Below, one piece after another: positions 45,163 to 47,039 of a stretch of 64,000 nucleotides of DNA. The DNA is from Gemmatales bacterium (GTDB lineage: Bacteria > Planctomycetota > Planctomycetia > Gemmatales > HRBIN36). The stretch's first letter is position 1, and every line of letters starts with the position of its first letter. Position numbers and translations under genes: made by a program. The stretch spans positions 448,001 to 512,000 of the forward strand of contig JBEPZY010000001.1 of assembly GCA_041640595.1 (NCBI GenBank). Direction: 5' to 3'. The notes beneath the pieces were generated by a model. The model was not told the origin of the DNA, did no database searches, and saw only the letters and a program-made list of their open reading frames with translations.

Positions 45163-45337
45163 GTCGTGGGCCATTGCTGTGCCAGGTTCGTAACTGCAAA
45201 CGGCAGATGCCGGGCATTTATGGCGGTACCTCGCGGCGGCGATACGACGGCCGGGGTACAATTTCGACAGGCTGCGCTTTGTGTAACAACGTCCCGACTC
45301 CTCCGTGTGGGCGGGCCAACAGGAGCGAGGATACGCT

Positions 45338-45892
45338 ATGCAAATCCGCGTCAAGCCGATGGGCGTGCTCCGTCAACGGCTGGGCAAACAGGAACTTGTC
45401 GTGGAACTTTCTGACGGGAGCACTCTGGAACAGTTGCTCGAAAAATTGGCGTTACCCGCAGGAATGGTTCAGGTGGTTCTGGTTAATCAGGAGCGCGAGA
45501 CAAATCGGCAGCGTGTCCTGCACCACAATGACGAAGTTACCTTGCTGGCTCCGGTTGCAGGTGGGGGCGGCGGCGCCAGGGCTTCTACCGGTTACACTCT
45601 GGACGAGGTTCAGACCGTGATTCGGGCGCTGTACGGCGAAAAGGACACCAAACGCGGCTTACAGGGGTGTTTCTTGTGGTTTTTGGAAGAAGTGGGAGAA
45701 CTCTCGGCGGCCATCCGCACTAATACCGCATCTTCCATTGCCGAGGAACTGGCCGACACGCTGGCCTGGCTGGCGACGCTGGCCAATGTGGCAGGCGTAG
45801 ATTTGGCCGAAGTATTTCACCGTAAATACGGCCGACAGTGTCCCGGTTGTGGTCAACTGCCCTGCGTGTGTCCCTCCGAGGTTAAGCCCTGA
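45338..45892 (+). CDS. MoaD/ThiS ubiquitin-like domain fused to a MazG-like nucleotide pyrophosphohydrolase
   Basis: aa 1-76 show the beta-grasp pattern ending DEVTLLAPVAGG; then EEVGEL..EELAD MazG motif and a C-terminal CPGC..PCVC. Confidence 0.87.
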   Translation: MQIRVKPMGVLRQRLGKQELVVELSDGSTLEQLLEKLALPAGMVQVVLVNQERETNRQRVLHHNDEVTLLAPVAGGGGGARASTGYTLDEVQTVIRALYGEKDTKRGLQGCFLWFLEEVGELSAAIRTNTASSIAEELADTLAWLATLANVAGVDLAEVFHRKYGRQCPGCGQLPCVCPSEVKP

Positions 45893-46061: not shown

Positions 46062-46799
46062 CTAGCGCAACAAGATATAGCGAGTCAGCACGAACAGTAT
46101 GGCCCCGATGCCGCCCAAATTTCCCAGCCAGAAGATGAACATCCATTTCAATAAATCCGCCCGAACCGCCTCGAGCCGCACTTCTAGCGAAGTAACTTTT
46201 TGCTGCAAATCTCGCAAATCCTGGCGCTGTTGCCGCATGTACTCCTCCAACTCCTGCACCTTAACCTGTAAAGCCACCATTTCCTGGCGTAACTGACTCA
46301 GCTCCGCTCGCAAATGTTGTAACTCCTGGCGTAACTGTTCAACATCGGTCCGCAGTTGCTGTAATTGCTGCTGTTGCTGGCTAACCTGGGCTCGCAACTG
46401 CTCCAAACCGTGGCGTAACTGTTCAACATCAGCCTGCAATACAGCAAATTCTTGGCGAAACTGGCCTAAATCGGCTAGCAACTGCTGCATGGTCTGTCGC
46501 AAATGAGCCGTTTCAACGCGCTGGTCTGCGATGCCCGCGGACAAAGGCGGTAGCTCTTGTTGCAAGCGAGCGCTTATCGCATCCAATTCCTGCTGTAATC
46601 GGTCAACCTGCGGGCGGAGTTGTTGCAACTGATCGAGATCGCTGCGCAAAGCGTGAAACTCAGCCTGAAGCTCCAGCAGGTCCTCTCGGGTAGCAGCGCG
46701 AGCCACTCCTGTGCTTTCGATGTAAGCCAGGAGCGCTTTCGTTTCATCTTCGCCCAGCCGCGGTTTGAGCTTCTCGTATAGTTCTAATGCTGCGGACAT
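46062..46799 (-). CDS. DUF1640/CCDC90-like coiled-coil protein with C-terminal TM anchor
   Basis: ELYEKLK..LGEDETKAL, ATREDL, long heptad run, ADLLKWMFIFW. Confidence 0.8.
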   Translation of the reverse strand: MSAALELYEKLKPRLGEDETKALLAYIESTGVARAATREDLLELQAEFHALRSDLDQLQQLRPQVDRLQQELDAISARLQQELPPLSAGIADQRVETAHLRQTMQQLLADLGQFRQEFAVLQADVEQLRHGLEQLRAQVSQQQQQLQQLRTDVEQLRQELQHLRAELSQLRQEMVALQVKVQELEEYMRQQRQDLRDLQQKVTSLEVRLEAVRADLLKWMFIFWLGNLGGIGAILFVLTRYILLR

Positions 46800-47039
46800 C
46801 CGCAGGCTGCCTGGTTGTCCAGTCGGAGACATTATACCTATCGCCAGGGGAGTGGATAGGAAATTCGCCTGAGGCTCCCGGCCGCATCAGGCATGCAATC
46901 GAGCGGAGGGCTCAGGCGAAGAAAAATACTCCTGCTTGCTCTTTCCCTTTGCTATTATGGTGAACAGGCGTAGGCTTATTGCAGGAGAGCATTGGCTCTG
47001 AGCGAACGCCGACTAACCATTACAGTAAGGTGATGCCTC

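What the first reader, a model, noticed from the sequence alone, without database searches (positions are those of the whole stretch)
45338..45892. Ubiquitin-like domain encoded as an N-terminal fusion, through its Gly-Gly, to a MazG-like enzyme
Seen: from ATG 45338 the first 76 residues are a complete MoaD/ThiS-like unit (MQIRVK...VLVN...DEVTLLAPVAGG, GG at 45560-45565). There is no stop; the frame continues GGGARASTG into an intact MazG-type domain (EEVGEL...EELAD) with a Cys-rich tail (CPGC..PCVC). Established: sulfur-carrier/conjugating Ubls need a free C-terminal GG, and MoaD-MoaE fusions (mycobacterial MoaX, Deinococcus MoaD-MoaE) are cleaved at the GG, in Deinococcus by a JAMM protease. 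Inference: this is either a polyprotein processed to give a free Ubl plus MazG (analogous to eukaryotic ubiquitin-fusion precursors), or a hard-wired Ubl tag that controls MazG stability or activity. I do not recall this fusion being described. The 76-aa length and MQIxVK start matching ubiquitin are probably coincidence. No E1 or JAMM gene is in this window.
Basis: partly seen in the sequence, partly recalled or inferred. Interest (0 to 1): 0.7.

Follow-up and report, generated by a model that had tools for sequence, protein, structure and literature searches.

The report
Sulfur carrier fused to unrelated enzyme
In one genus of hot-spring bacteria, the small ubiquitin-like sulfur carrier that normally serves a tungsten enzyme is made in one piece with an unrelated nucleotide-cleaning enzyme, and is probably cut free by a protease, much as ubiquitin is cut from ribosomal proteins in eukaryotes.

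Summary
The fusion is real. One 184-aa frame (45338-45892, +) joins a MoaD/ThiS domain (PF02597) through Gly75-Gly76 to a MazG domain (PF03819). Three other sequencing runs cross the junction without an indel. It occurs in 4 of 4 genomes of one thermophilic Gemmatales genus; 54 other genomes have a free MazG.

New here: the ubiquitin-like half is the AOR-linked (AorD-type) MoaD. Free relatives sit directly after aorC of the tungsten aldehyde oxidoreductase (23 of 29 loci). Among 267 genomes, all 11 with this carrier have aorC. In this genus the fused copy is the only one found, and both halves have left their ancestral operons.

PVAGG is invariant while the linker drifts (26% identity). All four ubiquitin-like proteins of this genome carry tails after GG, and a JAMM peptidase with an intact motif is present. 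Best reading (0.72): a JAMM-cleaved precursor giving free carrier plus MazG. Cleavage was not tested.

This is a new variant of known MoaD-MoaE and ThiS-ThiG precursors, unusual because the passenger is unrelated. The scan had not noted this fusion before; it holds two analogous Ubl-GG fusions from other genomes.

The parts
45338..45892 (+). Fusion gene, 184 aa: AOR-type MoaD - linker - MazG
   Evidence: same fusion in 8 clusters and 4 of 4 genus genomes
45338..45565 (+). Ubiquitin-like beta-grasp domain, residues 1-76, of the clade found after aorC (AorD-type MoaD)
   Evidence: PF02597; fold; relatives after aorC; tree
45551..45565 (+). PVAGG tail; Gly75-Gly76 at 45560-45565 is the predicted cleavage site (cut after Gly76)
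   Evidence: 100% identical among 8 fused proteins; Gly codons vary synonymously among 4 genomes; the cut itself is inferred
45566..45595 (+). Variable 10-residue linker with no ATG/GTG/TTG start for MazG
   Evidence: 26% pairwise identity; pN 0.46-0.87; pLDDT under 50 at residues 74-84
45596..45832 (+). Single-domain MazG NTP pyrophosphohydrolase of the 1VMG type; acidic motif E117/E118/E121 and E137/D140
   Evidence: PF03819; 1VMG E 1.2e-19; E117, E118, E121, E137 and D140 invariant in 9 fused sequences
45839..45871 (+). CPGC-x4-C-x-C tail, probably metal-binding (inference); shared with free MazG relatives
45321..45331 (+). Shine-Dalgarno-like AGGAG/GAGGA upstream of ATG 45338
   Evidence: seen in the sequence

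Best explanation
The gene encodes a two-in-one precursor. Its first 76 residues are the MoaD-like sulfur carrier that normally accompanies the tungsten aldehyde oxidoreductase AorABC (shown by synteny and co-occurrence). In the ancestor of this genus the carrier gene left the aor operon and mazG left its own operon, and the two were joined in frame at a new site (both moves shown by synteny; order of events not shown). The cell's JAMM zinc peptidase cuts after Gly76 (inferred). The freed carrier is adenylated by an E1, converted to a thiocarboxylate and delivers sulfur, presumably through MoaE, for the pyranopterin of the tungsten cofactor (inferred from established MoaD chemistry). The freed MazG works as an ordinary nucleotide-pool cleaning pyrophosphatase (inferred from family). 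The fusion persists because JAMM cleavage makes it nearly equivalent to a two-gene operon, and because MazG has no start codon of its own in this genome, so a stop in the linker would lose it.
For: (1) Origin: 23 of 29 close free relatives lie directly after aorC, and 23 of 29 end in GG-stop (some loci are duplicates across collections). (2) Co-occurrence in 267 Gemmatales genomes: carrier in 11, one copy each (the 12th weak hit is a canonical MoaD beside moaE); aorC in 12; all 11 carrier genomes have aorC, and the extra aorC is cut by a contig end. (3) All 4 genus genomes keep aorC with no carrier after it in the flank held, and the fused copy is the only one found. (4) Selection: synonymous sites largely saturated (pS 0.63-0.84); pN 0.10-0.25 in the carrier, 0-0.09 in residues 66-76, 0.14-0.19 in MazG, 0.46-0.87 in the linker. 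PVAGG 100% versus linker 26% identity. (5) Trimming must already operate: 4 of 4 ubiquitin-like proteins of this genome are extended after GG (MoaD GG-MM, CysO-like GG-EI, ThiS-ThiG, this one), as are 14 of 20 in five relatives. (6) A JAMM with E...HSH-x7-S-x2-D is in the genome, resembles PfJAMM1 and has orthologs in 58 of 61 genomes; ThiS-ThiG is one stop-free match in 48 of 61. (7) Precedent: HvJAMM1 cuts SAMP1-MoaE exactly after the last Gly and the uncut fusion is inactive (PMC4443979 passages); DR0402 cuts MoaD-MoaE (PMC8832034 passages); adding aorDE raised AOR specific activity from 4.5 to 16 U/mg (PMC9295118 passages).
Against: No cleavage was observed, and the specificity of this JAMM is unknown. 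No JAMM or E1 gene is near the fusion. The genome has a canonical MoaD beside moaE that could supply pyranopterin alone, and Ubls are partly redundant in Thermococcus (PMC11323500 passages). The role of AorD-type carriers is itself only putative; in the same table tungsten content fell with aorDE unless tungstate was added. A conserved PVAGG shows recognition, not cutting. aorB was not found in G003 (78% complete) and is cut by a contig end in G001. The carrier tree has only 80 columns and misplaces ThiS on a long branch. The 11 carrier genomes are kin, so their co-occurrence is not 11 independent events.
Confidence: 0.72

Rival explanations
1. The protein stays whole. The carrier domain helps AOR maturation without a free C-terminus, as a docking or scaffold module whose PVAGG tail still fits a partner's pocket, and MazG simply carries it.
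For: The sulfur-transfer role of AorD-type proteins has not been shown directly in the passages read. A canonical MoaD-MoaE pair exists in the genome. The linker is flexible, so MazG could stay active while fused.
Against: 23 of 29 free relatives end exactly at GG. Uncut Ubl-MoaE fusions are inactive. A JAMM that must trim the other three Ubls is present.
Confidence: 0.12
2. The fusion is selected for a functional link: MazG removes a damaged or side-product nucleotide of pterin or tungsten-cofactor synthesis, so one-to-one production with the carrier is useful, whether or not the chain is cut.
For: The fusion has survived to near saturation of synonymous sites. The pterin pathway starts from GTP (established).
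Against: Free mazG precedes an unrelated gene of about 780 aa in 26 of 26 non-genus loci, and is present in 58 of 61 genomes whether or not AOR is. The same carrier clade is fused to other unrelated passengers elsewhere.
Confidence: 0.08
3. The ubiquitin-like domain is a hard-wired tag that switches MazG activity or stability, released by JAMM under some condition.
For: Linear SAMP1 fusion inactivates MoaE until HvJAMM1 cuts it. The genome has a second JAB-E2-like-E1 cluster.
Against: The domain's presence follows aorC, not MazG. Orthologous MazG lacks the tag in 54 genomes outside the genus. The linker is unconstrained.
Confidence: 0.07
4. Assembly error or recent read-through with no meaning.
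For: The junction is G-rich in this genome.
Against: Three other runs give the same frame. Eight clusters and 4 genomes have it, with different junction DNA.
Confidence: 0.01

Closest known systems
AOR-linked MoaD (AorD/AorE of Aromatoleum aromaticum; AOR-adjacent MoaD class of Iyer, Burroughs and Aravind 2006, PMC1779556)
   Same: Free orthologs sit after aorA-aorB-aorC, and the clade co-occurs with aorC in 11 of 11 genomes.
   Different: Here it is outside the aor operon and fused through its GG to MazG. Sequence similarity to the Aromatoleum AorD itself was not tested.
MoaD-MoaE linear fusions cleaved by JAMM (Deinococcus DR2607 by DR0402; SAMP1-MoaE by HvJAMM1; mycobacterial MoaX, recalled)
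   Same: An N-terminal Ubl joined through GG to a second protein, in a genome with a JAMM peptidase.
   Different: In those cases the passenger is the carrier's own catalytic partner. Here the passenger is an unrelated housekeeping enzyme from another operon.
ThiS-ThiG fusion (PMC1779556)
   Same: Same architecture; present in this genome and as a stop-free match in 48 of 61 genomes searched.
   Different: ThiG is the pathway partner of ThiS.
Eukaryotic ubiquitin-ribosomal protein precursors (Ub-eL40, Ub-eS31; recalled, from no call)
   Same: Ubl first, unrelated housekeeping protein second, released by cutting after GG.
   Different: The Ubl here is a MoaD-type sulfur carrier about 20% identical to ubiquitin structures, the fusion was found in one genus only, and cleavage is not shown.
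Sulfolobus solfataricus single-domain MazG (PDB 1VMG)
   Same: 43% identity over 81 columns, target TM 0.90, acidic motif kept.
   Different: Extra Cys-rich tail (shared with Planctomycete relatives) and an N-terminal Ubl.

Membership tests
MoaD/ThiS sulfur-carrier Ubls | Beta-grasp fold and family profile match | tested here: met
   PF02597 over cut-off; model and Foldseek hits to MoaD/SAMP1
MoaD/ThiS sulfur-carrier Ubls | Gly-Gly at the end of the domain | tested here: met
   G75-G76 invariant in 9 fused sequences
MoaD/ThiS sulfur-carrier Ubls | Free C-terminal Gly in the primary translation product | tested here: not met
   The frame runs on for 108 residues; the Gly is free only if cleaved
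MoaD/ThiS sulfur-carrier Ubls | Adenylation and thiocarboxylate formation | not testable with these tools
   Two E1 genes and moaE exist in the genome; activity needs biochemistry
Canonical MoaD (NCBIfam TIGR01682 / TIGR01687) | Score over the curated cut-off | tested here: not met
   20.3 vs 66.15 and 30.4 vs 49.5 bits; the canonical MoaD is a separate gene beside moaE
AOR-linked MoaD (AorD type) | Orthologs adjacent to aor genes and co-occurring with them | tested here: met
   23 of 29 loci; 11 of 11 genomes; tree groups the fusions with aorC-linked carriers
AOR-linked MoaD (AorD type) | The gene itself adjacent to aor genes | tested here: not met
   aorABC is on contig C5 with no carrier after aorC
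JAMM-processed Ubl linear fusions | JAMM/MPN+ peptidase with intact zinc motif in the genome | tested here: met
   C1:644382-645047, E..HSH-x7-S-x2-D; also in the other 3 genus genomes
JAMM-processed Ubl linear fusions | Cleavage after the GG | not testable with these tools
   Needs enzyme assay or proteomics
JAMM-processed Ubl linear fusions | Passenger is the carrier's pathway partner (as in MoaD-MoaE, ThiS-ThiG) | tested here: not met
   MazG orthologs are unlinked to aor or moa genes in the loci seen and do not track AOR
MazG-like NTP pyrophosphohydrolases | Helical fold with ExxE...ExxD metal-binding motif | tested here: met
   PF03819; E118, E121, E137, D140 invariant; 1VMG match
MazG-like NTP pyrophosphohydrolases | NTP to NMP plus PPi activity; substrate | not testable with these tools
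   Needs assay

The most novel reading that the evidence does not exclude
Bacteria with a permissive JAMM peptidase use 'Ubl-GG-passenger' polyproteins as a general, ubiquitin-style way of expressing unrelated proteins: a sulfur carrier for tungsten-cofactor synthesis is delivered as the leader of whatever gene it lands in front of. The MazG fusion would be one fixed case. The same or neighbouring carrier clades fused to a membrane protein (P0078/P0081), an uncharacterised domain (P0082/P0233) and an APH-type phosphotransferase (P0088/P0094) would be independent repeats. This would be a living prokaryotic model for the origin of eukaryotic ubiquitin-ribosomal protein precursors.
Probability: 0.3. 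Interest if true: 0.75.

Novelty: new variant of a known kind. Interest (0 to 1): 0.5.

Why it matters
The bacterial Ubl-GG fusions in the papers I read join a carrier to its own partner enzyme. This one joins a carrier to an unrelated housekeeping enzyme and has kept both halves under strong selection. If cleavage is confirmed, it is a natural bacterial counterpart of ubiquitin-fusion precursors and a clean case of a fusion made harmless by an existing protease. It also gives a handle on an open question, what AOR-linked MoaD proteins do: their GG tail stays invariant even after leaving the operon and with a canonical MoaD present, which suggests a dedicated role. It is a small, easily expressed 184-aa test substrate for a thermophilic bacterial JAMM. 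Its reach is limited: one genus, known chemistry.

Tried and rejected
ESM Atlas gave no usable hit.

A wider spread of the MazG fusion was not found: not among 830 candidates of similar length, 8000 longer candidates, the best 150 of the 50%-representative search, 400 phylum genomes or 267 order genomes outside the genus. These searches are seeded on this carrier, so an independent fusion with a distant Ubl could be missed.

No pre-fusion state was found: no genome showed carrier and mazG adjacent but separate; the sister genus G004 has them on different contigs. An internal start for MazG was rejected for this genome (no ATG/GTG/TTG in the linker), though G001 has GTG and TTG codons there. 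A programmed frameshift releasing the carrier was rejected: the shifted frames give no conserved stop right after GG. No sigma-70 promoter match was found near the gene. The RNA-library contig X7 spans the gene but cannot show transcription.

An early impression that G002 had lost aorC was wrong: a degraded piece follows aorB, but an intact aorC is on another contig. The match of length and N-terminus to ubiquitin is coincidence: free relatives are 75-82 aa and structure hits favour MoaD/SAMP1.

Literature: MazG+MoaD+fusion as whole words gave 0 papers; MazG+ubiquitin-like+ThiS+fused gave 5, none on topic by title and abstract start ('ThiS' also matches the English word); 'MazG' has 0 occurrences in the main text of PMC1779556 and PMC1949818. 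Their supplements, and subscription journals, were not seen and could list the fusion.

Full report
OBSERVATION. The window holds one open frame from ATG 45338 to TGA 45892 on the + strand, 184 aa, with a Shine-Dalgarno-like stretch upstream. Residues 9-76 match Pfam ThiS and 112-169 match MazG, both over their cut-offs. A model built from 9 sequences (mean pLDDT 75, pTM 0.44) shows a beta-grasp domain, a low-confidence stretch at 74-84 and a helical domain. Its best structural matches are Sulfolobus MazG 1VMG and MoaD/SAMP1 chains. Contigs of three other runs (X2, X6, X7) cross the junction without an indel in the ORF; X1 may be the source of the window and is not counted.

DISTRIBUTION. Of 77 homologs found, 8 clusters are full-length fusions (65-98% identity; sources name Gemmatales and bacterium HR36) and 69 match only the MazG part. 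In 61 genomes, the fusion is in 4 of 4 of the window's genus; 54 others have a free MazG ortholog and 3 have no match. The best-matching runs are hot-spring and microbial-mat metagenomes. No MazG fusion appeared outside the genus in 267 order genomes or 400 phylum genomes.

ORIGIN OF THE UBIQUITIN-LIKE HALF. It is not the canonical MoaD, which is a separate gene beside moaE and about 30% identical. Its closest free relatives (42-51%) lie right after aorC in an aorA-aorB-aorC operon (Pfam AFOR, Fer4 and Pyr_redox). Of 53 loci fetched, 6 are the fusion, 29 are close free relatives and 18 are distant. Of the 29, 23 have aorC directly upstream and 23 end in GG-stop; two of the six without aorC have under 12 bases upstream, and a few loci are duplicates. 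In 267 Gemmatales genomes the carrier is in 11, one copy each; a twelfth weak hit is a canonical MoaD. aorC is in 12. All 11 have aorC; the twelfth aorC is cut by a contig end. Six of the seven non-genus genomes keep the carrier behind aorC and one (G461) has it on another contig. A tree groups the fused domains with aorC-linked carriers (87/98 support for fusions plus three aorC-linked rows), apart from canonical MoaD and CysO; it rests on 80 columns and places ThiS wrongly on a long branch. This class is known: AOR-adjacent MoaD (PMC1779556, section 11 and passages) and aorD/aorE of Aromatoleum (PMC6365974 passages), whose addition raised recombinant AOR activity (PMC9295118 passages).

BOTH HALVES MOVED. 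This genome has aorABC at C5:125748-130838 (67-79% identical to G048) with no carrier behind aorC. The other three genus genomes also have aorC without it; aorB was not found in G003 (78% complete) and is cut by a contig end in G001. Free mazG precedes a gene of about 780 aa in 26 of 26 non-genus loci and 0 of 4 genus loci (30 of the 58 matching genomes had loci fetched). The fusion instead sits between batA/batB-like VWA genes and def-fmt. No intermediate with adjacent but separate genes was seen.

SELECTION. Across four genomes synonymous sites are largely saturated (pS 0.63-0.84 in the two domains). pN is 0.10-0.25 for the carrier, 0-0.09 for residues 66-76, 0.14-0.19 for MazG and 0.46-0.87 for the linker; the two Gly codons vary synonymously. 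Among 8 fused proteins, pairwise identity is 100% for PVAGG, 66% for the carrier core, 77% for MazG and 26% for the linker. Among the five most divergent, 5 of 5 tail positions and 0 of 10 linker positions are invariant. The tail lies beyond the last strand, next to the drifting linker, so its constancy means that something still reads it (inference). The residue after GG is G, S or N, never Pro (few independent states).

PROCESSING MACHINERY. All four ThiS-family domains of this genome run past their GG: MoaD GG-MM, a CysO-like GG-EI, ThiS fused to ThiG, and this one; so do 14 of 20 in five relatives. Since MoaD and ThiS need a free C-terminal Gly (established), a trimming peptidase is already required. 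The genome has two JAB proteins, two E1s and MoaE. The JAMM at C1:644382 has an intact E...HSH-x7-S-x2-D motif and resembles 2KKS and PfJAMM1; orthologs are in 58 of 61 genomes. ThiS-ThiG is a full-length stop-free match in 48 of 61; 7 have a stop inside the match, 5 match ThiG only and 1 has none. JAMMs cut linear Ubl fusions exactly after the last Gly, and the uncut SAMP1-MoaE fusion is inactive (PMC4443979 passages; PMC8832034 passages).

MECHANISM. Shown: the fusion, the identity of both halves, their relocation, selection on both domains and on PVAGG, and the presence of JAMM, E1, MoaE and AorABC. Inferred: cleavage after Gly76; adenylation and thiocarboxylation of the carrier; sulfur delivery for the tungsten pterin; ordinary housecleaning by MazG. 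I put this at 0.72. Rivals: an uncut, non-covalent role (0.12); a selected link between MazG and pterin nucleotides (0.08); a regulatory tag on MazG (0.07); artefact (0.01). Against the best reading: no cleavage data, a canonical MoaD that could substitute (redundancy is reported in Thermococcus, PMC11323500 passages), no JAMM gene nearby, and the still putative role of AorD-type proteins.

RECURRENCE. Related carriers are fused through GG to other passengers, each in two diverged records: a membrane protein (P0078/P0081, 89% identical), an uncharacterised domain (P0082/P0233, 66%) and, for a more distant Ubl, an APH-type phosphotransferase (P0088/P0094, 78%). Single records add a second membrane protein and a pseudouridine glycosidase. 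I saw protein records only, not their DNA. Among 123 of 149 representative hits with a parsable GG, 87 end at GG, 20 have short tails and 16 have tails of 20 or more residues.

COMPARISON AND NOVELTY. It works like MoaD-MoaE and ThiS-ThiG precursors, but fails one shared feature: the passenger is not the carrier's partner. In that respect it resembles eukaryotic ubiquitin-ribosomal protein precursors (recalled). I found no paper describing it (0 occurrences of MazG in the main text of two surveys); supplements and subscription journals were not seen. The scan's index has no look-alike by sequence and two analogous Ubl-GG fusions in other genomes, which I did not check. Verdict: a real, genus-restricted new variant of a known kind; interest 0.5.

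Noticed in passing
G000:C9:157255-160200 (L047, L049): Second JAB protein (337 aa), a 60-aa ORF, a 192-aa ORF with a weak E2/UBC match (PF00179, E 0.18) and an E1: a candidate prokaryotic ubiquitin-type conjugation cluster. The JAB is present in 6 of 6 genomes checked.
   Followed up: partly
G000:C4:102171-103199 (L002): ThiS fused to ThiG through GGG; one stop-free match in 48 of 61 Gemmatales genomes.
   Followed up: yes
G000:C4:4349-4585 (L003) and G000:C1:38395-38670 (L001): Canonical MoaD ends GG-MM and the CysO-like Ubl ends GG-EI; both need trimming.
   Followed up: yes
P0078, P0081, P0079, P0082, P0233, P0088, P0094, P0215: Other Ubl-GG-passenger fusions with membrane proteins, an uncharacterised domain, an APH phosphotransferase and a pseudouridine glycosidase.
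   Followed up: partly
G002:C31 (L091:5907-6247): A degraded aorC remnant follows aorB while an intact aorC lies on C45; in G004 aorAB and aorC-carrier are also on different contigs. The aor operon looks fragmented in this family.
   Followed up: partly
window 46062-46832 (-): 256-aa heptad coiled-coil protein with a C-terminal hydrophobic segment, between the fusion and def; not seen at this position in G001-G003.
   Followed up: no
G000:C1:644382-645047 (L046): The JAMM of this genus carries a variable insertion of about 30-85 residues near its C-terminus, absent in G004 and G048.
   Followed up: no
G000:C3:151914-153788 and C1:741087-743006: Two further AOR-family tungsten enzyme genes besides aorB.
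   Followed up: no
G000:C5:131050-131300: Tandem direct repeats of roughly 100 bases downstream of aorC, near where relatives have the carrier gene (seen).
   Followed up: no
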